Shown one piece after another: positions 2,531-32,622 of a stretch of DNA of 35,929 nucleotides. Source of the stretch: a virus (Duplodnaviria > Heunggongvirae > Uroviricota > Caudoviricetes); IMG/VR virus record IMGVR_UViG_3300011591_000012, positions 1 through 35,929 of that record. One strand, given 5' to 3'. The stretch's first letter is position 1; every line of letters starts with the position of its first letter. Made by a program: the position numbers and the translations under genes. A model generated the notes under the pieces. It had not been told where the DNA came from and did not search any database. It saw only the letters and a list, made by a program, of their open reading frames with translations.

Positions 2531-2536
2531 CCCCCC

Positions 2537-2622
2537 GCTGAAAAACATAACCCATAAATGCTAGCTGTACCAGGAACCACCTCCTTAGCCTGCGTAATCT
2601 CCCTTACACGGGCTTATTTTTT
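2537..2622 (+). ncRNA. cyaR: CyaR (RyeE) small regulatory RNA
   Basis: Sequence GCTGAAAAACATAACCCATAAATGCTAGCTGTACCAGGAACCACCTCCTTAGCC...CCCTTACACGGGCTTATTTTTT recognised as CyaR, including the anti-SD-like CCTCCTTA segment and the terminator hairpin with U-tail. Confidence 0.8.
2596..2622. other. P2-type attachment core (attR junction), overlapping the 3' end of cyaR
   Basis: Plus strand reads AATCTCCCTTACACGGGCTTATTTTTT, the reverse complement of the 27-bp P2 att core as I recall it (AAAAAATAAGCCCGTGTAAGGGAGATT); it is immediately followed by ogr and the rest of the prophage. Confidence 0.6.
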
Positions 2623-9449: not shown

Positions 9450-9698
9450 AGCCTTGATTTGCACTCTCTCAATTTCCAACTGACAAAATACGTAGCCAAA
9501 ACGCTATCAAATCTGACAGCCTGCTTTGAGCGAGAAACAGACATGGATGGCATACAGTGAAAGTAGCCGCACAATGAGCATCACTGCAATTCTGAATTCA
9601 AGCTCTAATACTATTGAGACCGTATCATACAGTCACTCGCAAAAATTACTTTACCTGAGTGAAAAAATTGATTCCAAGCAAAATGAAAACTTGTAATT

Positions 9699-9720
9699 CA
9701 TTATTACATGCATAATAATG
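9699..9720. promoter_or_regulatory. 22-bp palindrome (8-bp perfect arms) about 105 bp upstream of the OLD-like gene; candidate operator
   Basis: CATTATTA-catgca-TAATAATG read directly from the sequence; AT-rich context so chance is possible. Confidence 0.2.
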
Positions 9721-9825
9721 AATAAAAACTTGAGCTATATAAACCAAAGTTGTTCCGAATAGTCCGTTGAGACATCACTCGAATTATAGGAATACAAGGT
9801 TTTATTTTTATAAGGAATCGCTCCC

Positions 9826-12090
9826 ATGGGTTTGCAAAGCATAAGAATAAAAAACTTACTATCATTTAATGATGTAATAATAAATTCCCTAGAGGATGTA
9901 AATTGCATTGTAGGGATGAATAATGTTGGCAAATCCAATCTTATGAAAATATTGAAATATTTTTACGACAAACTTGACGACATAAAAGTAATACCTCCTG
10001 ATTTTCATTCTAGTTATACTCCTTCAGGGTCAATAACATTGACTTATGATGTAACAAGAATAAAGAGAATTGTAATGAACCCTAATAACAATGGTCGCTT
10101 TCACAAGCATATTTATAACACTTTATTTAAGCCACAATCATTCATCCGAAAGCCGCAGAAATTCTGTCTTCCTTTCATATCTCCTTTGGGTTTCCAAAGA
10201 AAAAGCACTTATAGCATTACACTCACAATTTCTAAAGATGACTCCGTAACTTGGTCAATTAGCACACCAAATGCCCGGCATCTAATTAAAACTCTATTTC
10301 CTTTTTTCCATATTGAAACCAGACACATTGACTTATACGACTGGAATAGCATATGGAAAATGCTCAGCAGTATAAATTCCTTTAATTTCTCTGAAATAAA
10401 AAAAGAAGAACTCCTTGAGTTTTTGAATGAGAAAATATCAACTAAGCGGGGTAGTTACAAGAAGTATATAGAAAGAGTTGAAAATGTAATCCATACTAAA
10501 CCTTACACCTATAAAGATAAAGTCGTTAATTATCTAAAAATAGTTTTAGATGGCGATATCTTCATAAATAAAGGTGAAGAACTACATGTTCAGTCGGATG
10601 GCACGAACTCTCACAAATATCTTGAAATTATACTTAGCCTATTAATTTCATTAACAAGAACAGAATTTATCAATCCAATTATATATATTGATGAACCTGA
10701 AATTGGGCTACATCCAAAACTTAGCGAGAACTTTATTGAGAACATAAGCCTGACATATAAAAAGTATGATAAAACCCATGAGGAAATTGAGCCTGGAAAA
10801 TATTCAACACCATATCCAACTCTTATATTTAGCACTCATTCTCCGAGTTTACTAAAACTCACGCTAAAATCTTTCTTACATAAACAGCAGGTTTTGCATT
10901 TTTCAAAAGAACGTGACAACTCGACCAAAATTTCAAAATTAAACTCTAAATATAATGACATTAGATTTATAAATATGCTTAGCGATAATGAGGCCCGTCT
11001 ATTCTTTAGTGAATACATTCTATTTGTAGAGGGCGCCACAGAAGTTGAATTGTTTAGAAATTATAATCTGCAAAAGCTGTTTCCAGTACTTAAAAGGTTA
11101 GATGTGTATGATTGCGATGAAGTAATGTTGAAAAATATAAACCCCAGCTACTCAAATGCAGCCATCCCATTTCTAGTAGTAAAGGATATTGATCAGATTG
11201 CCGTTGTTGACTTCGAACATGAACAATTTAAATTTAATTCGAAAGGGAAATCAATTATTAATAAAATCATTAAGAGAGATAAACTACACTATTTTTCGAC
11301 ATACCAAAAACCTTTTCTTAACGCAGCAAAATTTCTTTTAAGCCAAGATGAAAGGAAAGTAACATTCAGTGAAAATGGCCTAAAATTCAGACACTTCAGT
11401 ATAGGCAGAGTTATAAGCGCAGTTAATTTTTTATCCTCTAAAGATAATGTTTATTATACTTCTACAACGATAGAAGGCTCATTGATCAATGAATTCTCTT
11501 TAGAGACATTCTCTTTATGGATCATTGACATAGTAATGAGAAGCTTTAATGTAAATAATAAAAACCCTGTAAAAATGATTAATGCTCTGCTGCAAAAATA
11601 CGATATTAAAACCCAATCAAAACAACTTTTTCCCAAAATACTTTCAAAATGTGAAACAAATCATAACCTACCATTGCGACACATGAGATTATTGAAAATC
11701 ATTAAAATTAGATATGCTAAAGAAATAATTGATGAGTTTAAAAAAACCATCCCCGACGTAAAAGACCAAGTTGCTATCTTGCGCCTTATTTTTAGTGGCA
11801 AAACAGAAACTCTTGTAAGTATAGAAATGCATTATAAAATTGATCAAAAACCGATACGGCAAGATATATTGGATTATATCAAAGCATTAAAGTCAGAAAA
11901 TTTCTCTTTTATGAGTTCTTACATAGGAAAGACTTCTGGATGGGTTACAAGCTTCATTGATTTTAGCCTTAATCATTATTCAGCCCTAGATAAAGAAAAT
12001 GTCGAAAAAAAATTCCGCTTGGCTTTTCCTGAAATTTCGCATATCATCGATCATGCTTCTTCTTCGATAGAAGCTGGAGGGCTCAAATGA
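9826..12090 (+). CDS. OLD-family nuclease: N-terminal ABC-type ATPase plus C-terminal Toprim domain
   Basis: 754 aa, low GC. Walker A GMNNVGKSN near the N-terminus; Walker B/D-loop IYIDEPEIGLHP; Toprim-like ILFVEGATEVE and VVKDIDQ (DxD) in the C-terminal half. Confidence 0.7.
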   Translation: MGLQSIRIKNLLSFNDVIINSLEDVNCIVGMNNVGKSNLMKILKYFYDKLDDIKVIPPDFHSSYTPSGSITLTYDVTRIKRIVMNPNNNGRFHKHIYNTLFKPQSFIRKPQKFCLPFISPLGFQRKSTYSITLTISKDDSVTWSISTPNARHLIKTLFPFFHIETRHIDLYDWNSIWKMLSSINSFNFSEIKKEELLEFLNEKISTKRGSYKKYIERVENVIHTKPYTYKDKVVNYLKIVLDGDIFINKGEELHVQSDGTNSHKYLEIILSLLISLTRTEFINPIIYIDEPEIGLHPKLSENFIENISLTYKKYDKTHEEIEPGKYSTPYPTLIFSTHSPSLLKLTLKSFLHKQQVLHFSKERDNSTKISKLNSKYNDIRFINMLSDNEARLFFSEYILFVEGATEVELFRNYNLQKLFPVLKRLDVYDCDEVMLKNINPSYSNAAIPFLVVKDIDQIAVVDFEHEQFKFNSKGKSIINKIIKRDKLHYFSTYQKPFLNAAKFLLSQDERKVTFSENGLKFRHFSIGRVISAVNFLSSKDNVYYTSTTIEGSLINEFSLETFSLWIIDIVMRSFNVNNKNPVKMINALLQKYDIKTQSKQLFPKILSKCETNHNLPLRHMRLLKIIKIRYAKEIIDEFKKTIPDVKDQVAILRLIFSGKTETLVSIEMHYKIDQKPIRQDILDYIKALKSENFSFMSSYIGKTSGWVTSFIDFSLNHYSALDKENVEKKFRLAFPEISHIIDHASSSIEAGGLK

Positions 12091-12201
12091 GCTGACGCAT
12101 GCCGTCACTTGCTCCAGCAAACACTAGCTCGGATTGTCTTGCGTCCGCTAAGCCGCTTTAAGCCTCACGGGGTGTAAAGATGTTATTGGTATCGAAGAGG
12201 A
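12058..12201 (+). ncRNA. Candidate structured ncRNA (retron msr/msd-like) between the OLD-like and RT genes
   Basis: 12-nt inverted repeat with one mismatch: TCTTCTTCGATA (12058-12069) versus TATCGAAGAGGA (12190-12201). Enclosed region is GC-rich against AT-rich flanks and has local stems GCTGGAG(12073-12079)/CTCCAGC(12111-12117) and TGACG(12093-12097)/CGTCA(12103-12107). The second repeat sits just upstream of the RT start. Confidence 0.25.
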
Positions 12202-12210
12202 AGCTTTTAC

Positions 12211-13308
12211 ATGAAACATAAAATTAATAAAATTAACAATGATTTTTATAAAAATTTTTATCTAAGAGAAACATTCTCCGATGATATTATTATGACTCAC
12301 GGAGTCCCTGAGATTTCCAATGACGATTATAAAAGCATTTCATTAAAGAATAGATTATGTTTCACTATAAGAAAAAGCTCCCCGCATAAAAAAATACAAG
12401 AAAGACTTATAAAAAATTTCCTAGTAAAAGTTCCTCTTAGCTCACCTGCAATTGCCTATCGTAAAAAATTAAACTATTTGAATTTTCTAGAACCTCATAT
12501 CCATGGTGAGAACTTTTGTCGAATTGACTTATGTAATTTTTTTCATAACATAAACTATAACTTTGCAAGGGAGTGTTTCAAATCCTACTTTGAAGATGAA
12601 TATCTGGTAAATAAAAAAATCAAAGTTATTGATGCATTTTTAAATAGTTTATCTATTGAGATTGTAGTCAACAATAAAAAGAAAAAAATATTTCCAATGG
12701 GATTCGCCACATCACCTTTCATATCCAATATAATTTTCAGAAAGTTAGATATTTTAATTAAAAGTTTGTGTGACAAAAGAAGCATCATTTACACTCGTTA
12801 TGCTGATGATATGCTTTTTTCGAGCTCCGGGAAAGACAAACTTCTTGGAAGTGAACATTTTGACAACGAGATATCAACTATTGTCAATACGGCAGGACTG
12901 TCCCTCAACAAACATAAAAAAATATTTAAGAAAGGCATAATCTCACTAAACGGCTATGTAATAGAAAATAAAAATGGAGGGGGAGAGAGAGGGAGTATAA
13001 GAATATCTAATGGAAAAATGTATTTAATACGGAAAGCACTAGATAAATTTAAAAAGGGATATTCTAAAGAGCATATTTGCAAAAAAGTATTTTCTGTTAA
13101 ATCACCAACTGTCAAGTATAATAACAATGCAGATCAGTTTGTAACGGATTTTTATAATTCACAATTCTCTAATAAGTTAGCTGGTTATCGTTCATATTTA
13201 ATATCATTAGTAAAATTTAATGATAAATTCAGATGTTTTCACGAAAACGAAATCACCAAATACTCAGTGATTATTGATGAAATTTCTAATGCACTGCTAA
13301 AACCCTAG
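12211..13308 (+). CDS. Reverse transcriptase, small retron/Abi-like (fingers-palm only)
   Basis: 365 aa, low GC. RT motifs read in the translation: motif A-like FCRIDLCNFFHNI, motif B-like FPMGFATSPFISNIIF, motif C YTRYADDMLFS (YADD box), motif D-like GLSLNKHK. GAGGA RBS 8 nt upstream. Confidence 0.75.
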   Translation: MKHKINKINNDFYKNFYLRETFSDDIIMTHGVPEISNDDYKSISLKNRLCFTIRKSSPHKKIQERLIKNFLVKVPLSSPAIAYRKKLNYLNFLEPHIHGENFCRIDLCNFFHNINYNFARECFKSYFEDEYLVNKKIKVIDAFLNSLSIEIVVNNKKKKIFPMGFATSPFISNIIFRKLDILIKSLCDKRSIIYTRYADDMLFSSSGKDKLLGSEHFDNEISTIVNTAGLSLNKHKKIFKKGIISLNGYVIENKNGGGERGSIRISNGKMYLIRKALDKFKKGYSKEHICKKVFSVKSPTVKYNNNADQFVTDFYNSQFSNKLAGYRSYLISLVKFNDKFRCFHENEITKYSVIIDEISNALLKP

Positions 13309-24832: not shown

Positions 24833-25005
24833 TGTCAGGAGTCCTGAATAGTGATTAGAGGAGTCACATGTCGGCATCAGTTTCCCGACGATGCGCATCC
24901 TCCGCCATCAGTCCCGGATGGCTTATCACTGACACAACAGCACCTTAGCGAATCGCGGGGCGCGACTCAGTAGCCTTGCCGTGTATTCATCACGGCGAGG
25001 TATTC
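24833..25005. promoter_or_regulatory. Divergent late promoter region between O (minus) and P (plus)
   Basis: 173-bp non-coding spacer between divergently oriented head operons; positional inference, no motif confirmed. Confidence 0.3.
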
Positions 25006-26778
25006 ATGACCATCACCACAGACACCACTCTTTTGCACGACCCGCGTCGTCAGGCGGCGCTGCTGTACTGGCAGGGGTTTTCCGTGCCGCAGATTGCCGC
25101 CATGTTGCAGATGAAACGCCCGACGGTGCAGAGCTGGAAACAGCGCGACGGCTGGGACAGCGTTGCCCCCATCAGCCGTGTCGAAATGAGTCTGGAAGCG
25201 CGGCTGACCCAGCTCATTATCAAACCGCAGAAAACCGGCGGTGACTTCAAGGAAATTGACCTGCTCGGACGCCAGATTGAACGACTGGCACGGGTAAACC
25301 GCTACAACCAGACCGGCAACGAGGCAGACCTTAATCCGAACATCGCTAACCGCAACAAAGGCGGGCGACGCAAACCGAAAAAGAATTTTTTCAGCGACGA
25401 GGCTATCGAAAAGCTGGAGCAGATTTTCTTTGAGCAGTCTTTCGAATATCAGTTGCACTGGTATCGCGCCGGGCTTGAGCACCGCATCCGCGATATCCTG
25501 AAATCCCGCCAGATTGGCGCGACGTTTTATTTTTCCCGCGAGGCGCTGCTGCGCGCCCTGAAAACCGGTCATAACCAGATTTTTCTGTCGGCCAGTAAAA
25601 CGCAGGCGTATGTGTTCCGCGAATACATCATCGCCTTTGCCCGGCTGGTTGACGTTGACCTGACCGGTGACCCGATTGCCCTGGGCAATAACGGCGCAAA
25701 ACTGATTTTTCTCGGCACCAACTCCAACACCGCACAGAGCCATAACGGCGACCTGTACGTCGACGAGATTTTCTGGATCCCGAATTTTCAGGTACTGCGT
25801 AAGGTGGCATCAGGTATGGCCTCACAGAGTCACCTGCGCTCGACCTATTTCTCCACCCCGTCCACGCTGGCGCACGACGCCTACCCGTTCTGGTCGGGGG
25901 AACTGTTTAACCGGGGACGCGCCAGCGCCGCTGAACGCGTGGAAATCGACGTCAGTCATAACGCCCTTGCCGGTGGGCTTCTCTGTGCGGACGGCCAGTG
26001 GCGGCAGATTGTCACCATTGAGGACGCGCTGAAAGGCGGCTGCACGCTGTTCGACATTGAGCAGCTCAAACGTGAAAACAGCGCCGACGATTTTAAAAAC
26101 CTGTTCATGTGTGAATTTGTTGACGACAAGGCGTCGGTGTTCCCGTTCGAGGAGCTGCAACGCTGCATGGTCGACACGCTGGAAGAATGGGAAGACTATG
26201 CGCCGTTTGCCGCCAATCCGTTCGGCTCCCGCCCGGTATGGATTGGTTACGACCCGTCACACCGTGGCGACAGCGCCGGATGCGTGGTACTGGCACCGCC
26301 GGTGGTGGCCGGTGGCAAATTCAGAATACTTGAGCGTCACCAGTGGAAAGGCATGGACTTTGCCACTCAGGCTGAATCCATCCGCAAACTCACTGAAAAA
26401 TACAACGTCGAATACATCGGAATTGATGCCACCGGCCTCGGTGTCGGCGTGTTCCAGCTCGTGCGCTCGTTCTATCCCGCCGCGCGCGATATCCGCTACA
26501 CACCGGAAATGAAAACCGCAATGGTGCTCAAGGCAAAAGACGTTATCCGTCGTGGCTGTCTGGAATATGACGTCAGCGCCACCGACATCACCAGCTCGTT
26601 TATGGCTATCCGCAAGACCATGACCAGCAGCGGACGCAGCGCCACCTATGAGGCCAGCCGCAGCGAGGAAGCCAGCCACGCCGACCTCGCCTGGGCGACC
26701 ATGCACGCCCTGTTAAATGAGCCACTCACCGCCGGTATCAGCACCTCGCTGACATCCACCATTCTGGAGTTTTACTGA
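25006..26778 (+). CDS. P: Terminase large (ATPase) subunit P
   Basis: 590-aa product from ATG 25006 (GAGG RBS); the ORF track start at 24976 is a TTG extension. Confidence 0.9.
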   Translation: MTITTDTTLLHDPRRQAALLYWQGFSVPQIAAMLQMKRPTVQSWKQRDGWDSVAPISRVEMSLEARLTQLIIKPQKTGGDFKEIDLLGRQIERLARVNRYNQTGNEADLNPNIANRNKGGRRKPKKNFFSDEAIEKLEQIFFEQSFEYQLHWYRAGLEHRIRDILKSRQIGATFYFSREALLRALKTGHNQIFLSASKTQAYVFREYIIAFARLVDVDLTGDPIALGNNGAKLIFLGTNSNTAQSHNGDLYVDEIFWIPNFQVLRKVASGMASQSHLRSTYFSTPSTLAHDAYPFWSGELFNRGRASAAERVEIDVSHNALAGGLLCADGQWRQIVTIEDALKGGCTLFDIEQLKRENSADDFKNLFMCEFVDDKASVFPFEELQRCMVDTLEEWEDYAPFAANPFGSRPVWIGYDPSHRGDSAGCVVLAPPVVAGGKFRILERHQWKGMDFATQAESIRKLTEKYNVEYIGIDATGLGVGVFQLVRSFYPAARDIRYTPEMKTAMVLKAKDVIRRGCLEYDVSATDITSSFMAIRKTMTSSGRSATYEASRSEEASHADLAWATMHALLNEPLTAGISTSLTSTILEFY

Positions 26779-27812
26779 TGAGCAAGAAAAAAGGGAAAAC
26801 ACCGCAACCTGCGGCAAAAAAAATGACCGCCAGCGCCCCGAAAATGGAGGCATTCACCTTTGGTGAGCCGGTGCCGGTACTCGACCGCCGTGACATTCTG
26901 GATTACGTCGAGTGCATCAGTAACGGCAGATGGTATGAGCCACCGGTCAGCTTTACCGGTCTGGCAAAAAGCCTGCGTGCTGCCGTACATCACAGCTCAC
27001 CGATTTACGTCAAACGTAATATTCTGGCTTCAACGTTTATTCCGCACCCGTGGCTTTCCCAGCAGGATTTCAGCCGCTTTGTGCTGGATTTTCTGGTGTT
27101 CGGTAATGCGTTTCTGGAAAAGCGTTACAGCACCACCGGTAAGGTCATCAGACTGGAAACCTCACCGGCAAAATATACCCGCCGTGGTGTGGAAGAGGAT
27201 GTTTACTGGTGGGTGCCGTCCTTCAACGAGCCGACAGCCTTCGCGCCCGGCTCCGTGTTTCACCTGCTGGAGCCCGATATTAATCAGGAGCTGTACGGCC
27301 TGCCGGAATATCTGAGCGCCCTTAACTCTGCCTGGCTGAATGAGTCGGCCACGCTGTTCCGCCGCAAGTATTACGAAAACGGCGCACATGCCGGATACAT
27401 CATGTACGTCACTGATGCCGTGCAGGATCGCAACGATATCGAAATGCTTCGCGAAAACATGGTGAAGTCGAAAGGCCGCAACAACTTTAAAAACCTGTTT
27501 CTCTATGCCCCGCAGGGGAAAGCCGACGGCATTAAAATTATCCCGCTCAGTGAAGTGGCAACGAAGGACGATTTTTTTAATATCAAAAAAGCCAGCGCCG
27601 CTGACCTGCTGGACGCGCACCGCATCCCCTTTCAGTTGATGGGCGGCAAGCCGGAGAACGTCGGGTCGCTGGGCGATATTGAGAAAGTGGCAAAGGTCTT
27701 TGTCCGCAATGAGCTTATCCCGTTACAGGACAGGATCCGCGAGATAAACGGCTGGCTCGGTCAGGAGGTCATCCGCTTTAAAAACTACTCACTGGACACT
27801 GACAACGGCTGA
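26778..27812 (+). CDS. Q: Portal protein Q
   Basis: 344-aa ORF overlapping the P stop; size and position of P2 gpQ. Confidence 0.9.
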   Translation: MSKKKGKTPQPAAKKMTASAPKMEAFTFGEPVPVLDRRDILDYVECISNGRWYEPPVSFTGLAKSLRAAVHHSSPIYVKRNILASTFIPHPWLSQQDFSRFVLDFLVFGNAFLEKRYSTTGKVIRLETSPAKYTRRGVEEDVYWWVPSFNEPTAFAPGSVFHLLEPDINQELYGLPEYLSALNSAWLNESATLFRRKYYENGAHAGYIMYVTDAVQDRNDIEMLRENMVKSKGRNNFKNLFLYAPQGKADGIKIIPLSEVATKDDFFNIKKASAADLLDAHRIPFQLMGGKPENVGSLGDIEKVAKVFVRNELIPLQDRIREINGWLGQEVIRFKNYSLDTDNG

Positions 27813-27816
27813 ACAT

Positions 27817-27839
27817 CGCCGCCTGCGGGCGGCTTTTTT
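27817..27839 (+). terminator. Rho-independent terminator after Q
   Basis: GC stem CGCCGCC-tgc-GGCGGC (imperfect) followed by TTTTTT. Confidence 0.55.
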
Positions 27840-27981
27840 ACACCCCGTCATCACGCCCTCACACGTTCGCCACTGTACAAAACACCCCGCAGACACACCA
27901 ACGCCCCGGCAGGCCGACTAAACGCCATCACGACGCGCTCAGACGCTGAAAAAATAAAATCAGCACCACCGCCAGCGCGCA

Positions 27982-28000
27982 GTGCTTTCCCCGCCTCGCC
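27982..28000. other. cos site (19-nt cohesive end)
   Basis: Plus strand GTGCTTTCCCCGCCTCGCC is the reverse complement of the P2 cohesive end GGCGAGGCGGGGAAAGCAC as I recall it; it sits just beyond Q as in P2. Confidence 0.6.
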
Positions 28001-28128
28001 CGCCCGCTTCATGGGTCGGTTTTAATGCAGGTGCACGAACACACTGGAGACGCACCAGTACTGGCGGTGGTCACGTAGATCCGCCCCTTAAAAGCCATGC
28101 AGAATAATGCAACTATTGCGGGCGTCGG

Positions 28129-28548
28129 CTAATCATCTTCTAAAGGTGGAATTTTGATGCCACTAATTAGCAGTACTTTCCGGTATGCCTCAAAAATAAT
28201 GTTGTGTGTTTTTTGTAAATCATCGAGCATTTTTTGCCGTCCTGCTGGGGTATCTTTGGCAAAATTATGAGCGCGAAAAAAATCATGTGCCAAGTAGTTT
28301 CTGGCTTTAAGAGCATCTGACACATACTCCAGTGTATCAGCATCCTCCACCATCCTAGACTTCAGTGCGTAATTCAATTTACCCAGCGTGTATTTATCCA
28401 TTTCTAAAAACTGTTTTTTCAGCGACTGTATATCTTTCCCCTGACTCATATCATACTCAGTGATAACATTTATCAACTCAGTCTCCAGTAATTGAGCTGC
28501 TTCCGAAGCATAACCAAATTTCCAATAAACCGTATCAAGCGTCACCAT
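28129..28548 (-). CDS. Small alpha-helical protein with HEPN-like Rx4HxF motif (candidate RNase or partner protein)
   Basis: 139 aa, low GC; motif ALKARNYLAHDFF resembles the HEPN Rx4-6H signature; GGGGA RBS; 91 bp downstream of the HNH gene on the same strand. Confidence 0.45.
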   Translation of the reverse strand: MVTLDTVYWKFGYASEAAQLLETELINVITEYDMSQGKDIQSLKKQFLEMDKYTLGKLNYALKSRMVEDADTLEYVSDALKARNYLAHDFFRAHNFAKDTPAGRQKMLDDLQKTHNIIFEAYRKVLLISGIKIPPLEDD

Positions 28549-28639
28549 ATAATCTATTCCCCATATAACAAATCACACCCCAAATTAAATCATAATACAT
28601 AATTAAATCTAACGCCTCGCTGCACCAGAAGAAGTCATG

Positions 28640-29971
28640 TTAACGCTTATCATGGAACTTTTTCCATTTTGTCATCAACTTTCCAGCATCAAGTTCTACA
28701 TGATGCGGTTGTAGAGTTTTACCCTCAAACATAGTTTTGTGGATACAATTAATAGAAAAATGAACCGTTAAGTCCTCTGGATTAATCCCCATTAATCCTT
28801 TATCAAACATTCGGTGTAAACTTACTTCAAGTAACAGGCCATTAGATGTGTTATTATTTGCTGATTCTGTTATTGCTTCAATATGTGCGGCTTCCAATAT
28901 CCCCTCTGGCAATGGATAGCCAGTAATAGCACATCTGCCATTGAAGTTATCCCAAACACGGCGTTTGAAATCAGCTTGATCTCCAGCATGACGGACTTTG
29001 TGAGTAACCTCGACTGTTCGTCCTGTAGCACAGGTATCGTTTGCGGCCTTGAAAGGATTAGTTAGACTTTCATTAATGGCTATATCCGTTCCATCCATGA
29101 TAAGAGATATTTCATTATTGGGTTCGGATGATGTTAATGGACTTATGTACTGATTGCTTAAAAAAGTCATACTAGATTCTTCATCAGTCGCGAGTTTCCA
29201 CGCTTCTGATTGTGTCATTGTTAGCAATGCCGTTTGATAAACTTGCTTATTAAAATAACGTTTATCTTTCTTGTCACTCCCCATATTAATAGTACTAGAT
29301 TTAATCGGAAGTGTTTTATCACCAATTAGTAGATCACGTATTTCTACAGTCTCTTCTAAGGTATCAATAGGAGCTACTATAGGGTTAGTCAACGGGTTAT
29401 CTACATGATCTACGTGGTTGTGTCGTAAATGCCACTCTATAGCACTATCTTTTATATGTATCTCGCAGACAGGGCATACAATAAGCCCCATAGATGTTAC
29501 AGGTAGCTTTTTGCCACCGATTAAGCGTAATGTATTTGCATTCTGGTTATGTACTTTCTTTTGGTTCTGTGTCAGTACACTACGCTTAGCCTCTAAACGG
29601 GTCGGAATCTTAGCAAGATTAAGCGATTTACGGCTCTCTTGTCTCTCAAGATCATAGATCCGAATCCCTGCTCCAGTTTTGATTTTTGTCCACATAGAGA
29701 TAGAACTAAGGAATTTATGTCCATGTACTTTTTCATAATCAGCATAAGCTTGCAAAGTAGCAGTGGAACTATCTAATCCTTTTTTACGGAGTGCTGTATA
29801 TTGCTGAAAAAGATTAATAGCATGAGCTGTAATAGAGCGCCTATTCTCTATAATTTGCGTTTTTTTTGCTGCTTGTTCTGCTTGCAATGCTTTTTGTTCA
29901 GGGGTAAGCGACTTCTTTTTGGCTTTCTTGGTTCTTTTCTTACTCAAAGTTTTCTTACTGTTATTGTTCAT
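28640..29971 (-). CDS. HNH-family nuclease with lysine-rich N-terminus and C2H2-like zinc-binding motif
   Basis: 443 aa, low GC. C-terminal segment CAITGYPLPEGILEAAHIEAI...NGLLLEVSLHRMFDKGLMGINPEDLTVHFS matches the HNH_2-type pattern. Central CPVCEIHIKDSAIEWHLRHNH; N-terminal KKTLSKKRTKKAKKK basic stretch. Confidence 0.6.
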   Translation of the reverse strand: MNNNSKKTLSKKRTKKAKKKSLTPEQKALQAEQAAKKTQIIENRRSITAHAINLFQQYTALRKKGLDSSTATLQAYADYEKVHGHKFLSSISMWTKIKTGAGIRIYDLERQESRKSLNLAKIPTRLEAKRSVLTQNQKKVHNQNANTLRLIGGKKLPVTSMGLIVCPVCEIHIKDSAIEWHLRHNHVDHVDNPLTNPIVAPIDTLEETVEIRDLLIGDKTLPIKSSTINMGSDKKDKRYFNKQVYQTALLTMTQSEAWKLATDEESSMTFLSNQYISPLTSSEPNNEISLIMDGTDIAINESLTNPFKAANDTCATGRTVEVTHKVRHAGDQADFKRRVWDNFNGRCAITGYPLPEGILEAAHIEAITESANNNTSNGLLLEVSLHRMFDKGLMGINPEDLTVHFSINCIHKTMFEGKTLQPHHVELDAGKLMTKWKKFHDKR

Positions 29972-30080
29972 TTTGCAAGCCTTTAATCTAATTCATGGAA
30001 AGGGGCATTCACTTGCCCTGTATCCAGTAAACTGACATAACACGATATAAGCAAGCTCCGTAATTCTTTCATGTTAATCA

Positions 30081-32357
30081 TCAATGGTCCATTGTGAATC
30101 CCGGCCACTCATCAGCGACCGGATACGTGAATTTTTTACCGTCGTAATTTACAGTCGCGCCACGCGCCAGCGCCTCAAGCTCCCATCGCTGCGGCCTGAT
30201 ACCGTTCTGAGCAAGGTCAACGCGGATACGGGTGATTTGCATTCGTTCCGACCTGTTCAGTCTGGCCGATGGCGCTATTTCATGCGGTTTTAACGGGCTT
30301 CCGTTTCTTTGCTGACGGTTTGGTCTTCTCAGGCCGTGTTTTAATGCGCTTCTGAGCGCCCTCACGACCTCCGGGTCATTCCATTCGATAACACCGTCAT
30401 CAACCAGATTAAGCACGGCTGCGGCGTGCTCAGAAGGTGTGGGAGCCGGTAACGAAGTATCACCACCGGTGAGCTTTCCACAGTTATTGACAGGACTCCG
30501 AGGCGCGGCGATGCCGCTTTTTAAAGTCAAAGGCTCAACGACCGGAACTTTCGGCACAATGCGCCAGTCCGTCGTTCTGGTGATATGAATATGACGCGCG
30601 CCGAGATGCGGCGCGTAAATGCCGACCACTCTCTCGACTTCTTCCTCATACTCGTTAACGTCATCCGACGGGCTACGGGCGACCCTGACAGTCTGACAAT
30701 CGCGCGGGACATTTGCCCCACCCTGCGCGCTGATATACAACGCAAAATCACCACTGTCTGCGGCGGCGCGTGCAGCCTCGACGCGTTCGTCAAACTCATC
30801 AGCAATGCTGACGCCGCGAGGCAATTTGCGTAGTTCACGGTAAGCCCCCATTGTCGGCAGGCCAACCGTTTTAAATTGCGGAATGCGCCACGTTGACGCC
30901 CATGCGGTAACAGCCGCGGCAGTATCTTTCAGCGGCCTGCCAGTATCGTTATCGAGCTGACCATCCAGTGCATAGCCGTCGATGTTTTTTGAGATGTATT
31001 TCGCGATATATCCCGCAGCACCGCCCCGGTTAAGGTGTTTTGCCTGAAAACGGTTTCGCGCAGCGCCTCTTTCGTCACCATCCTCTTTGAGCGCATAGCG
31101 ACGCATGATTTCGATAATCTGGTTACGCTGGCGTGGATTACAAAAAAGCATCATATGCCAGTGCGGCGTTCCGTCGTGGTGTGGCTCAACGACACGCAAA
31201 CCGTAGACCTGTAAATCATTATCCTTGAATGCCGTCCGCATCAGGCTCCAGATACGGCAGAGATAACGCTGCGCATCCTTTGGATTAAATGCCTCATCGT
31301 TCCAGCCGTGATTAAGCTGAACGGTTTTACTTTCGCCTTTTCCGACCTGACGTGTCGGGTGATACTTTGACGGCGCGGTCAGCGTGATAAACATCCCCAC
31401 ATCACCCTCTGCGGCGGCGTAACGCTCAATACCGGCAATGGTGTTCATCAGCTCCATCCGGCGAATTTCAGGATTAGAAATACTGCCCATCACCTTACTG
31501 ATAAGGTCGATGCGCTCGCCGGTTTCCCTGTTTTCAAGGTCACACGATTTAAGAAATTCCAGATTTGCCTGGCGGCGTGCACGTACATCACGAATGGCAT
31601 GTTTACTGGCATAAGGAGAACGGTCTTTATTCACCTCCCCGACAGCAATCAGTAACGCCTCATGCCAGCGCATACGCTGGCCTTTAAGCTGATGAGTCCA
31701 CCACTCATCGTTAAACAGACGGGCAATGGCAGAATATGCCTGCCTCGTGGTTATCTGTCCTTTACGGTATTTTTTCCAGTAGAGCGGGGAAATATTGAAA
31801 GCACGTGCAGCGCCAGCAACATGACCATACAGATGATCCTGCGCCTCATCCGTAAACAGCGATTCTTTTTCGCCATGCGCATCCACCCAGGCATCGCAGA
31901 GTTCCTCATACATCATGAAAAGCTGCGATGAGATACGGGCGGCAAACTTTTTCAGCTCCTTGTCATTCATCCCCGGCAGACGCGCATAATGGTCACGCTC
32001 TGCCAAAAACAGCAACGACGCGTCGGTGTTCATTTCATGGCGCTGATTCACACGCTCAATGCGCGGCCATAAACGACGCTGAAAAGTGGATGTGAGGAAA
32101 TAAAACCCGTGCACCGGGCTTTTATTGCGCCGGATGTAGTCATAGCGTGAAGTAAACAGCGAGCGCAAAAAGTAAGGCAGGCGGTTAATCGTGGATAAAA
32201 CACCTTGCACCTGACGCATCTCATCACGTGTAAGGGGTCTTTCGCGCCCGACAGCCTCGCGTGGCGCGTTCCATGCATAAGCACCGGCAAACGTCTTACC
32301 GGTGCCTGCGGCAAATGCTGACGGAGGGACAAAACGCCCGGAGGCTTTAACGGCCAT
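30081..32357 (-). CDS. A: Replication initiation protein A (rolling-circle HUH endonuclease)
   Basis: HUH motif HWH in VEPHHDGTPHWHMMLF and tyrosine pair in GYIAKYISKNIDGY. Start uncertain: ATG 32357 (AGAGG RBS), or TTG codons at 32366 or 32399. Confidence 0.85.
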   Translation of the reverse strand: MAVKASGRFVPPSAFAAGTGKTFAGAYAWNAPREAVGRERPLTRDEMRQVQGVLSTINRLPYFLRSLFTSRYDYIRRNKSPVHGFYFLTSTFQRRLWPRIERVNQRHEMNTDASLLFLAERDHYARLPGMNDKELKKFAARISSQLFMMYEELCDAWVDAHGEKESLFTDEAQDHLYGHVAGAARAFNISPLYWKKYRKGQITTRQAYSAIARLFNDEWWTHQLKGQRMRWHEALLIAVGEVNKDRSPYASKHAIRDVRARRQANLEFLKSCDLENRETGERIDLISKVMGSISNPEIRRMELMNTIAGIERYAAAEGDVGMFITLTAPSKYHPTRQVGKGESKTVQLNHGWNDEAFNPKDAQRYLCRIWSLMRTAFKDNDLQVYGLRVVEPHHDGTPHWHMMLFCNPRQRNQIIEIMRRYALKEDGDERGAARNRFQAKHLNRGGAAGYIAKYISKNIDGYALDGQLDNDTGRPLKDTAAAVTAWASTWRIPQFKTVGLPTMGAYRELRKLPRGVSIADEFDERVEAARAAADSGDFALYISAQGGANVPRDCQTVRVARSPSDDVNEYEEEVERVVGIYAPHLGARHIHITRTTDWRIVPKVPVVEPLTLKSGIAAPRSPVNNCGKLTGGDTSLPAPTPSEHAAAVLNLVDDGVIEWNDPEVVRALRSALKHGLRRPNRQQRNGSPLKPHEIAPSARLNRSERMQITRIRVDLAQNGIRPQRWELEALARGATVNYDGKKFTYPVADEWPGFTMDH

Positions 32358-32622
32358 ATGAGCCAAAAGCCTCTGAACAACGCTTGCTGAGTTGCTCAAC
32401 CTGCGCGTTTAAATCAGCAAAAGACTTTGCGCTTCCGGTCAGAATATCGTGATGCATCAGGCCGGAAACGAGCTGGCTTAATTTCGGGTAATAACCAACC
32501 ACCGCCAGCCATTCCTGACCGGCGTTTTTACCGCTTTCCGCTCTCTTTTTCTCGTGGAGAATAAACTGAAAGCTGTCACTGGTAACGACATAACGTTCGC
32601 CAATTTCAATACGAATACTCAT
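32347..32622 (-). CDS. Hypothetical early-operon protein
   Basis: 91-aa ORF between the zinc-finger gene and A, overlapping neighbours by a few nt; no family recognised. Confidence 0.5.
   Translation of the reverse strand: MSIRIEIGERYVVTSDSFQFILHEKKRAESGKNAGQEWLAVVGYYPKLSQLVSGLMHHDILTGSAKSFADLNAQVEQLSKRCSEAFGSYGR

What the first reader, a model, noticed from the sequence alone, without database searches (positions are those of the whole stretch)
28129..29971. Two-gene cargo at the P2 tin/old position: HNH nuclease plus small HEPN-like protein, candidate undescribed defence module
Between cos (27982-28000) and A, where P2 itself carries tin and old, this prophage has two co-oriented low-GC genes in their place. 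One is a 443-aa protein with a C-terminal HNH motif. The other is a 139-aa protein with an Rx4HxF HEPN-like motif. I do not recognise this pairing as a named system. Two predicted nucleases, in a locus known to exchange anti-phage cargo, would fit an abortive-infection or toxin-immunity module.
Basis: partly seen in the sequence, partly recalled or inferred. Interest (0 to 1): 0.85.

Follow-up and report, generated by a model that had tools for sequence, protein, structure and literature searches.

The report
Two separate cargo genes, not a pair
The two low-GC genes next to the packaging site of this P2-like prophage are real, but they are two independent single-gene cargo cassettes: a zinc-finger HNH nuclease and a small, probably HEPN-type protein, both untested candidate anti-phage genes rather than one two-gene system.

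Summary

The reading as one two-gene module is not supported.
- **Separate segments.** DNA homology splits the segment at window 28625-28632.
- **HNH cassette (28628-30060).** It travels alone, with about 90 bp of its own upstream DNA. It is found in a lambdoid prophage, a Pectobacterium integrative element and a Citrobacter island beside Gabija-like genes.
- **The 139-aa gene.** It is the homolog of phage PSP3 gp38. It continues the Q-cos backbone of a subset of P2/186/PSP3-like phages and sits beside four other kinds of cargo, or alone.
- **Selection.** Both genes are under purifying selection.
- **HNH protein.** It has an invariant C2H2-type finger and an HNH_2 nuclease domain. The nearest solved relative is the modification-dependent enzyme VcaM4I.
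- **gp38-like protein.** Its family is large (about 2,000 clusters at 50% identity), absent from Pfam, and all-helical with an invariant RNxLxH. HEPN membership is probable but not proven.
- **Prior record.** Rousset et al. 2022 already list this exact arrangement as "HNH_2 + hypothetical". I found no test of it.

The verdict is two ordinary but uncharacterised candidate defence genes, of moderate interest.

The parts
27982..28000 (.). cos, the 19-nt P2-type cohesive-end sequence. It marks the right edge of the hotspot.
   Evidence: The sequence is read directly. Ends of linear P2-like phage records map 17-51 nt from here. The identity of the 19-mer with P2 cos is from memory.
28129..28548 (-). 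PSP3 gp38-like gene, 139 aa. The protein is all-helical and probably a divergent HEPN protein.
   Evidence: ORF. Homologs. AlphaFold2 model with pLDDT 89.5 and five helices. dN/dS 0.09-0.27.
28279..28302 (-). Codons for R83-N-Y-L-A-H88-D-F90, the Rx4HxF motif. The recombination breakpoint between the mosaic allele halves lies within about 25 bp of these codons.
   Evidence: Invariant columns. The sliding identity profile flips at about 28300 against L001, L010 and L025.
28549..28625 (-). Upstream region that travels with the small gene. It includes the ribosome-binding site and a weak terminator-like hairpin at 28629-28608.
   Evidence: Homology to P2-like loci L001 and L007-L009 runs unbroken from Q through the small gene to 28623-28625. 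Hairpin.
28625..28632 (.). Junction between the two independently inherited segments.
   Evidence: Small-gene homology ends at 28623-28625. HNH-cassette homology begins at 28628-28632.
28640..29971 (-). HNH gene, 443 aa. In order along the protein: a lysine-rich and helical N-terminus, one C2H2-type zinc finger, a small helical domain, and a C-terminal HNH_2 nuclease.
28781..28933 (-). Codons for the HNH_2 domain (aa 347-397), including the invariant H363, N377 and H386.
   Evidence: Pfam match. Invariant columns. dN/dS of the C-terminal 130 codons is 0.06-0.25.
29414..29476 (-). Codons for the C2H2-type finger: C166-x2-C169-x11-H181-x4-H186.
   Evidence: The four residues are at least 90% conserved in 50 homologs. 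Weak matches to C2H2-type and related zinc-binding models recur across the family and against PDB zinc fingers.
29972..30060 (-). Upstream region that travels with the HNH gene, presumably carrying its own expression signals.
   Evidence: Homology to the non-P2 loci L003 and L017 extends to 30054-30060, and to L015 as far as 29996. A promoter-like site at 30098-30071 lies just outside this region. It is a consensus match only.
30081..32399 (-). P2 replication gene A, the left flank of the hotspot. Backbone homology resumes at 30068-30092.

Best explanation
The segment holds two unrelated single-gene accessory cassettes, stacked in the cos-proximal hotspot of a P2-like prophage.

**1. HNH cassette (28628-30060).** It encodes a stand-alone DNA endonuclease. 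The C-terminal HNH_2 domain is the conserved catalytic part. The faster-evolving N-terminal two thirds, with its helical region, single C2H2-type zinc finger and small helical domain, would be the nucleic-acid reader. There is no methyltransferase and no immunity gene in the cassette. I therefore infer that it works like a type IV or solitary restriction nuclease expressed from the prophage. It would cut incoming phage DNA that carries a feature the host lacks, or it would be switched on by infection.

**2. The 139-aa gene.** It belongs to the PSP3 gp38 family and is part of the cos-adjacent backbone of a sub-lineage of P2/186/PSP3-like phages. It is a helical protein with an invariant RNxLxH site. 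I infer that it is a divergent HEPN ribonuclease acting as a homodimer. Its biological role, whether abortive infection, RNA processing or something else, is open. Because it is conserved next to the variable DNA, it also serves as the cos-side homology arm when cargo is swapped.

**Shown:** the gene structure, the domains, the cassette boundaries, the independent distribution, and purifying selection.

**Inferred:** nuclease activity, the targets, and any anti-phage role.
For: **Modularity**
- blastn of window 27600-30300 against all fetched loci shows HNH-cassette homology at 81-86% nucleotide identity from 28628/28632 to 29996-30060. The matching loci are a lambdoid prophage (L015), a Pectobacterium integrative element (L017) and a Citrobacter island (L003).
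- The P2-like loci L001 and L007-L009 align continuously from Q and cos through the small gene and stop at 28623-28625. L010 stops at 28550, just past the start codon.
- tblastn finds the two proteins together only in this prophage lineage.
- In E. coli complete genomes the small gene is in 31 of 5426 and HNH in 12 of 5426.
- The small gene sits next to DUF2971 plus two hypothetical genes, DinI plus a 243-aa gene, DUF3850 plus a 68-aa gene, or tumA/tumB/gp37 in PSP3. It is the only cargo in L028.

**HNH gene**
- Pfam HNH_2 match at E 6.6e-11.
- Invariant H363, N377 and H386, and a conserved C166/C169/H181/H186 finger.
- The closest solved chain is 6yex, which is VcaM4I, an EVE-HNH modification-dependent restriction enzyme (PMC7897488).
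- Its neighbours elsewhere include AAA_15/TOPRIM plus UvrD genes, which look like Gabija, and a CAP12-PCTIR TIR gene.
- dN/dS is 0.06-0.25 in the nuclease part and 0.28-0.52 in the N-terminal part.

**Small protein**
- AlphaFold2 model with pLDDT 89.5, all helical.
- Eight HEPN-clan Pfam families (Apea, DUF4145, RiboL-PSP, Cthe2314, LA2681, Swt1, MAE_28990, pEK499_p136) appear among the sub-threshold hits of 77 family members.
- One relative is a tandem duplicate carrying two RNxLAH motifs, and another is fused to a HepT-like domain.
- dN/dS is 0.09-0.27.
Against: - **No phenotype data.** Nothing here shows an effect for either gene.
- **No modification reader.** The N-terminal part of the HNH protein has no recognised modification-reader domain, and its structure model is poor (pLDDT 59). 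Foldseek on that model finds nothing.
- **No defence context elsewhere.** Outside enterobacterial mobile elements, the small family's neighbours are mostly housekeeping genes and no partner gene is conserved. There is no defence-island signal there.
- **Always paired within P2.** Inside P2-like phages the HNH gene has so far been seen only next to a gp38-type gene: 12 genomes, 3 IMG/VR contigs, and three 'HNH_2 + hypothetical' entries in Rousset Table S5A.
- **Possible co-transcription.** No convincing promoter lies between the two genes.
Confidence: 0.6

Rival explanations
1. One reading: the HNH nuclease and the HEPN-like protein form one cooperating two-gene system, either toxin-immunity or sensor-effector. 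It would be analogous to the validated 'Nuclease, HEPN' system PD-lambda-3.
For: - The genes are adjacent, co-oriented and 91 bp apart, with no clear promoter between them.
- In P2-like phages the HNH gene always has a gp38-type neighbour.
- In L025 the HNH gene (96% identical) is linked to the same N-terminal half of the small gene.
- A nuclease-plus-HEPN system exists as a precedent (PD-lambda-3, Vassallo 2022 supplement).
- The small protein gives a weak PADLOC hit to PD-Lambda-3_B at E 2e-3.
Against: - HNH homologs under purifying selection persist alone in four other element types.
- gp38 homologs persist alone, or with unrelated cargo, in most of the phages that carry them.
- The homology breakpoints fall between the two genes.
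- The HNH protein does not match any PD-Lambda-3 component.
- The 12 E. coli copies are at least 99.3% identical, so they count as one lineage and not as 12 independent observations.
Confidence: 0.1
2. The small protein is not a nuclease. It would be a helical adaptor, regulator or anti-defence protein of the phage, and the RNxLxH motif would serve binding or structure.
For: - Structure searches return mainly generic helical bundles.
- There is no significant HEPN profile match.
- There is no antitoxin-like partner, which a toxic solitary RNase might be expected to need.
- The gene is inherited with the phage backbone rather than swapped like cargo.
Against: - R, N and H are invariant across a very large and diverse family.
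- Eight different HEPN-clan families recur among the weak hits, far more than the share of such families in Pfam would predict.
- A tandem-duplicated relative and a fusion to a HepT-like domain fit a dimeric HEPN enzyme.
Confidence: 0.22
3. The HNH gene is a selfish or housekeeping phage nuclease rather than a defence gene. It could be a homing endonuclease, or an HNH helper of the terminase for cos cutting, as in HK97-like phages.
For: - It lies within 650 bp of cos and close to the terminase genes.
- HNH proteins of other phages have such roles (general knowledge).
- It moves between elements as a compact cassette.
Against: - Only 12 of 5426 E. coli genomes carry it, although P2-like prophages are common, so P2 packaging does not need it.
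- The same cassette sits in non-phage islands and in an integrative element.
- The domain is HNH_2, the type found in restriction enzymes (PMC5714182), and its nearest solved relative is a restriction enzyme.
- No flanking repeats or interrupted host gene were found.
- One copy is disrupted by IS3, in strain W13-16.
Confidence: 0.08

Closest known systems
Type IV (modification-dependent) HNH restriction endonucleases, e.g. VcaM4I (EVE-HNH; PDB 6yex; PMC7897488)
   Same: - Both have a C-terminal HNH_2-type nuclease, and VcaM4I is the best solved match (E 2e-5).
- Both are single polypeptides with an N-terminal non-catalytic part.
- Neither has a cognate methyltransferase.
- Both are carried on mobile DNA.
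   Different: - The N-terminal part here has no EVE, SRA, YTH or sulfur-binding reader. It has a helical region, one C2H2-type finger and a small helical domain.
- Dependence on modified DNA is untested.
PD-lambda-3 ('Nuclease, HEPN'; Vassallo et al. 2022, PMC9519451)
   Same: - It is a validated E. coli anti-phage system that combines a nuclease with a HEPN-like protein.
- The small protein gives a weak hit to PD-Lambda-3_B over aa 32-95, a stretch that includes the motif.
   Different: - PD-lambda-3 has three genes.
- The hit scores only 15 bits.
- The HNH protein matches no PD-lambda-3 component.
- The two genes here are not inherited together outside one lineage.
HEPN superfamily, solitary members (Apea, DUF4145, RiboL-PSP, AbiJ-type; Anantharaman et al. 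2013, PMC3710099)
   Same: - Both are all-helical domains of about 140 aa with an Rx4-6H motif.
- The motif here is RNxxxH, as in many HEPN RNases (that comparison is from memory).
- Weak hits fall on eight HEPN-clan families.
- Solitary and tandem forms exist in both.
   Different: - No significant profile or fold match was obtained.
- The family has a second invariant block, EAAQLLETEL in helix 1, and a conserved H94.
- The family is not in Pfam or NCBIfam.
P2 tin and old
   Same: They occupy the same locus between gene A and cos and have the same orientation. They are prophage-expressed exclusion genes (PMC9122126).
   Different: There is no sequence relationship. PADLOC returns no Old or Tin match for either protein.
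Salmonella phage PSP3 gp38 (NP_958097.1)
   Same: It is 72% identical over the full length. It is the last gene before cos in an isolated 186/P2-like phage.
   Different: None in kind. It is annotated only as gp38/orf38 and no function is known.

Membership tests
HNH_2 (PF13391) His-Me finger nucleases | Profile match above Pfam's gathering score | tested here: met
   42.3 bits against a cutoff of 21, E 6.6e-11, aa 347-397 covering profile positions 1-66 of 66.
HNH_2 (PF13391) His-Me finger nucleases | Catalytic His, Asn and metal-binding His conserved | tested here: met
   H363 (in AAHIE), N377 (in SNG) and H386 are invariant in 50 homologs. Assigning these residues their catalytic roles rests on general knowledge of the fold.
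HNH_2 (PF13391) His-Me finger nucleases | DNA cleavage activity | not testable with these tools
   Needs biochemistry.
Type IV / modification-dependent restriction enzymes | Nuclease without a cognate methyltransferase | tested here: met
   The cassette (28628-30060) holds one ORF only. No methylase gene was listed next to the HNH homolog in the loci read.
Type IV / modification-dependent restriction enzymes | Recognisable modified-base reader domain (SRA, EVE/PUA, YTH, SBD and similar) | tested here: not met
   Nothing in aa 1-330 reaches a Pfam or NCBIfam threshold. NCBIfam PT-DNA_restrict scores 33 bits against a cutoff of 180, over the HNH part only.
Type IV / modification-dependent restriction enzymes | Cleavage depends on DNA modification | not testable with these tools
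   Needs plating on T4 with glucosyl-hmC, hmC or C DNA, plus in vitro assays.
HEPN superfamily (Pfam clan CL0291) | Conserved Rx4-6H motif | tested here: met
   R83 and H88 are invariant in 29 homologs and at least 90% conserved in 77.
HEPN superfamily (Pfam clan CL0291) | Significant profile match to a HEPN family | tested here: inconclusive
   No match reaches threshold through the family domain. Eight HEPN-clan families recur among weak hits, best E 0.0025. hhalign against a DUF4145 subfamily is negative. The one above-threshold HepT-like hit lies in a separate fused domain.
HEPN superfamily (Pfam clan CL0291) | Four-helix up-and-down bundle with the motif at the dimer interface | tested here: inconclusive
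HEPN-MNT (HepT-MntA) toxin-antitoxin modules | Adjacent minimal nucleotidyltransferase antitoxin gene | tested here: not met
   No such neighbour appears in the window or in the P2-like loci. No neighbour is conserved across 43 other loci.
PD-lambda-3 | Matches to the system's protein models and its three-gene layout | tested here: not met
   Only PD-Lambda-3_B matches, at E 2e-3 and 15 bits. The HNH protein has no match. There are two genes here against three.
A conserved two-gene system (any kind) | The two genes co-occur and move together across unrelated genomes | tested here: not met
   They are found together only in one P2-like lineage and apart everywhere else.

The most novel reading that the evidence does not exclude
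The PSP3 gp38-like family is a previously unrecognised, very widespread family of solitary HEPN ribonucleases. P2-like phages would keep it at the cos edge of their hotspot as an anti-phage or abortive-infection gene. The zinc-finger HNH_2 protein would be a new class of single-gene restriction nuclease whose reader is a C2H2-type finger rather than a known modification sensor.
Probability: 0.2. Interest if true: 0.6.

Novelty: new variant of a known kind. Interest (0 to 1): 0.4.

Why it matters
The P2 cos-proximal hotspot is a proven source of new anti-phage genes. If the HNH cassette restricts phages, it would add a solitary nuclease with an unusual zinc-finger reader. It would also give a handle on how such enzymes tell self from non-self without a methylase. 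If the gp38-like protein is an active HEPN RNase, a family of about 2,000 sequence clusters spanning many phyla would gain a function. Showing that the cargo splits into separately inherited cassettes also matters in practice. Each gene should be cloned and tested alone, and counting this locus as one 'system' in hotspot surveys would be misleading.

Tried and rejected
- **Structure of the HNH protein.** The model was poor (pLDDT 59, pTM 0.27) and Foldseek on it gave nothing usable.
- **Profile searches of PDB sequences with the small family.** No HEPN chain was found.
- **hhalign of the small family.** Comparisons with a single DUF4145 protein, with a DUF6988 neighbour, and with a 38-sequence DUF4145 alignment all gave no signal.
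- **The HepT-like hit (E 1.5e-5).** It first looked like direct proof of HEPN membership. It lies in a separate C-terminal domain of a fusion protein that lacks the Rx4H motif, so I rejected it as proof.
- **The 139-aa gene near the Cronobacter HNH homolog.** It is not a gp38 relative.
- **The 'Putative HEPN' P2 gene that Rousset et al. cloned from E. coli S88.** Its sequence is unrelated to this small protein.
- **A suspected AP2-like DNA-binding domain.** It seemed possible in the 56-aa insertion that longer HNH homologs carry. Pfam gave no support, so I dropped the idea.
- **Flanking repeats around the HNH cassette.** None were meaningful.
- **Supplementary tables of the DefensePredictor paper.** None of the four accession numbers tried was found.
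- **Defence-island association of the small family.** A Pfam scan of 148 crudely called neighbour ORFs from 38 loci showed mostly housekeeping genes.
Full report
**What is in the sequence.** The minus strand carries two ORFs: 28129-28548 (139 aa) and 28640-29971 (443 aa), 91 bp apart.
- They lie in a low-GC stretch, 0.34-0.42 against 0.52-0.59 on either side.
- On one side are the P2 terminase and portal genes (24976-27812, +). On the other is replication gene A (30081-32399, -).
- The string GGCGAGGCGGGGAAAGCAC reads at 28000->27982. Window 28001-28035 matches the extreme ends of linear P2-like phage records.
- The identical locus is in E. coli UPEC85. RefSeq annotates it there as 'HNH endonuclease signature motif containing protein' plus 'hypothetical protein'.

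**Domains of the 443-aa protein.**
- Pfam HNH_2 matches aa 347-397 at E 6.6e-11, 42.3 bits against a cutoff of 21.
- In an alignment of 50 homologs, H363, N377 and H386 are invariant. C166, C169, H181 and H186 are at least 90% conserved, with spacing C-x2-C-x11-H-x4-H.
- Weak matches to C2H2-type and related zinc-binding models recur across the family and against solved zinc fingers.
- The best solved relative of the nuclease part is 6yex at E 2e-5. This is VcaM4I, an EVE-HNH modification-dependent restriction enzyme (PMC7897488).
- HNH_2 is the HNH type found in several restriction enzymes (PMC5714182).
- NCBIfam's phosphorothioate-dependent restriction model matches only the HNH part and falls far below its cutoff.
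- PADLOC returns only generic 'HNH' models.
- The AlphaFold2 model is poor overall (pLDDT 59). Its confident islands are a helical hairpin, the finger, and a small helical domain at aa 240-276. Foldseek on this model gave nothing.

**The 139-aa protein.**
- It has no Pfam or NCBIfam match. It matches PHROG 12893, of unknown function, and gives a weak PADLOC hit to PD-Lambda-3_B at E 2e-3.
- It is 72% identical to gp38 of Salmonella phage PSP3, the last gene before cos in that isolated phage.
- A profile search of 1.84 billion cluster representatives found 1969 relatives at E<=1e-3. They are spread over Proteobacteria, Acidobacteria, Gemmatimonadota, Nitrospirota, Desulfobacteraceae, Flavobacteriales and Actinobacteria.
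- Two blocks are invariant among close homologs: E16-AAQLLETEL-25, and R83, N84, L86, H88, F90 and H94. The R-N-x-L-x-H core stays at least 90% conserved in 77 distant members.
- The AlphaFold2 model is confident (pLDDT 89.5) and has five helices.

**Is the small protein a HEPN domain?**

Evidence for:
- The conserved Rx4H motif.
- Eight different HEPN-clan Pfam families appear among the sub-threshold hits of 77 family members, about 20 member-hits in all. Such families are a fraction of a percent of Pfam by my estimate, not a counted figure.
- One relative (P0265) is a tandem duplicate with two RNxLAH motifs. Another (P0169) is fused to a HepT-like domain that lacks the motif. Both fit an enzyme that works as a dimer.

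Evidence against, or missing:
- No hit reaches a curated threshold through the family domain.
- hhalign against a DUF4145 subfamily alignment gives probability 0.15.
- Profile searches of PDB sequences and Foldseek find nothing.

I rate HEPN membership at about 0.7.

*HNH homologs occur without the small gene.* HNH homologs at 66-77% identity occur with no gp38-type gene nearby (tblastn). They are found in:
- a Citrobacter island next to AAA_15/OLD-TOPRIM and UvrD genes that look like Gabija;
- a lambdoid prophage, between the lysis genes and a CAP12-PCTIR TIR gene;
- a Pectobacterium integrative element.

More distant homologs sit in a Cronobacter islet.

*The small gene occurs without HNH.*
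- It is present in 31 of 5426 complete E. coli genomes.
- Twelve of these also carry HNH. Those twelve copies are at least 99.3% identical, so they represent one lineage.
- The other 19 carry the small gene without HNH. Eighteen of them share one allele. The SaT040 representative that I inspected carries DUF2971 plus two hypothetical genes.
- One genome has DUF3850 plus a 68-aa gene.
- Salmonella houtenae prophages have DinI plus a 243-aa gene.
- PSP3 has tumA, tumB and gp37.
- In IMG/VR contig L028 the small gene is the only cargo between A and cos.

*DNA homology confirms the split.*
- The HNH cassette aligns to the non-P2 elements from 28628/28632 to 29996-30060. It therefore includes about 90 bp of its own upstream DNA and almost nothing past its stop codon.
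- P2-like phages L001 and L007-L009 align continuously from Q through cos and the small gene, and stop at 28623-28625. L010 stops at 28550.
- The junction falls in the 8 bp between these two blocks.

**What still speaks for a link.**
- Within P2-like phages, every HNH copy seen so far has a gp38-type neighbour. This covers 12 genomes, 3 IMG/VR contigs, and three 'HNH_2 + hypothetical' entries in Rousset Table S5A.
- No good promoter lies between the genes.
- A validated 'Nuclease, HEPN' system exists, PD-lambda-3.

One insertion into a gp38-bearing phage, later spread by recombination, explains the first point. I give the paired-system reading about 0.1.

**Selection and mosaicism.**
- Both genes are under purifying selection. 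The small gene has dN/dS 0.09-0.27 with near-saturated dS.
- HNH has dN/dS 0.19-0.42 overall. The nuclease part is at 0.06-0.25 and the N-terminal 300 codons are at 0.28-0.52. That pattern fits a conserved effector joined to a faster-evolving recognition part.
- The small gene is mosaic. Against L010 and L029, the half encoding aa 83-139 is 94-100% identical while the half encoding aa 1-82 is 44-72%. Against L001 and L025 the pattern is reversed.
- The switch occurs at about 28300, at or within about 25 bp of the RNYLAH codons.
- In L025 the HNH gene and the N-terminal half match the window, but the C-terminal half and the cos-side spacer do not.
- The small gene therefore behaves as the cos-side crossover arm for cargo exchange, with gene A as the other arm.

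**Mechanism I commit to.**
- The HNH cassette encodes a solitary DNA endonuclease expressed from the prophage. It would cut foreign DNA recognised by its N-terminal finger and helical part. It works like a type IV or solitary restriction enzyme, but I do not file it as a member, because the defining reader domain was looked for and not found.
- The gp38-like protein is most likely a dimeric HEPN RNase. Its biological role is open.
- Its neighbours in other phyla are mostly housekeeping genes, and no neighbour is conserved. A defence role therefore rests only on its place in phage hotspots and on two mobile-element contexts.

**Novelty.**
- The arrangement is already catalogued: 'HNH_2 + hypothetical, WP_023304084 + WP_023281582', in Table S5A of PMC9122126.
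- I found no sign that it was tested. It is absent from the tested-systems tables I searched and from the DefensePredictor supplements.
- Neither protein belongs to a named defence family. Both are new variants of known kinds, a solitary HNH nuclease and a HEPN-like small protein.

**Interest.** Interest is moderate. Each gene is a reasonable candidate for testing, but the striking part of the claim, a new two-nuclease system, does not hold.

Noticed in passing
window 9600-13308: There is a second low-GC island (GC 0.30-0.34) at the P2 Z/fun position. ORF 9826-12090 (+, 754 aa) matches PADLOC ATPase-Toprim_I-B at E 1.6e-210. ORF 12211-13308 (+, 365 aa) matches RT_I-B at E 2.7e-106. Together they look like a type I-B retron. 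The msr/msd RNA was not located, and Rfam gave no match at gathering threshold.
   Followed up: partly
window 2535-2619: The CyaR/RyeE sRNA gene is here (Rfam, 98.9 bits). It lies just outside the ogr/D end of the prophage, so it probably marks the integration site.
   Followed up: no
window 28250-28350: Alleles of the small gene are mosaics of two half-genes. The switch lies at or near the codons of the invariant RNYLAH motif. The window allele combines the N-terminal half seen in L001 and L025 with the C-terminal half seen in L010 and L029.
   Followed up: partly
E. coli W13-16, NZ_CP080235.1 2278-5693 (hit H30/H82): In this one strain the HNH gene is interrupted by an IS3-family transposase, while the small gene stays intact.
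   Followed up: no
window ~29352-29367 (HNH aa ~202-206): Close HNH homologs of 502-510 aa carry a 56-60 aa insertion here. The window protein and the 449-aa lambdoid-prophage version lack it. Pfam gives no match to the insertion.
   Followed up: partly
P0265 (331 aa) and P0169 (279 aa), relatives of the small protein: P0265 is a tandem duplication of the family domain, with motifs ARNHLAHHYW and SRNELAHHFW. P0169 fuses the family domain to a HepT-like domain (25.1 bits against a cutoff of 23.5) that lacks an Rx4H motif.
   Followed up: partly
L011 6084-8081: In one metagenomic genome the distant 153-aa family member sits in a tight co-oriented run with gaps of 10-24 bp. The run is DUF4145 (a HEPN family), a 123-aa gene, the family member, then DUF6988. 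DUF5677 lies nearby, and a resolvase and a capsid fragment lie upstream.
   Followed up: no
window 30081-30105: The hotspot boundary lies inside the last codons of gene A. After ...GCTGATGAGTGG the sequence differs from that of the E. coli S88 P2 locus cloned by Rousset et al. The last few residues of the A protein therefore vary with the cargo.
   Followed up: no
window 27965-27975 and 28061-28071: A perfect 11-nt inverted repeat, ACCACCGCCAG / CTGGCGGTGGT, brackets the cos sequence.
   Followed up: no
L001 6822-9321 (E. coli SaT040 and 17 other genomes): The SaT040 representative of the 18-genome allele carries alternative cargo next to the small gene. It is a DUF2971 protein plus two proteins (158 and 380 aa) with no Pfam match. 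Rousset Table S5A lists it as 'hypothetical + DUF2971 + hypothetical + hypothetical'.
   Followed up: partly
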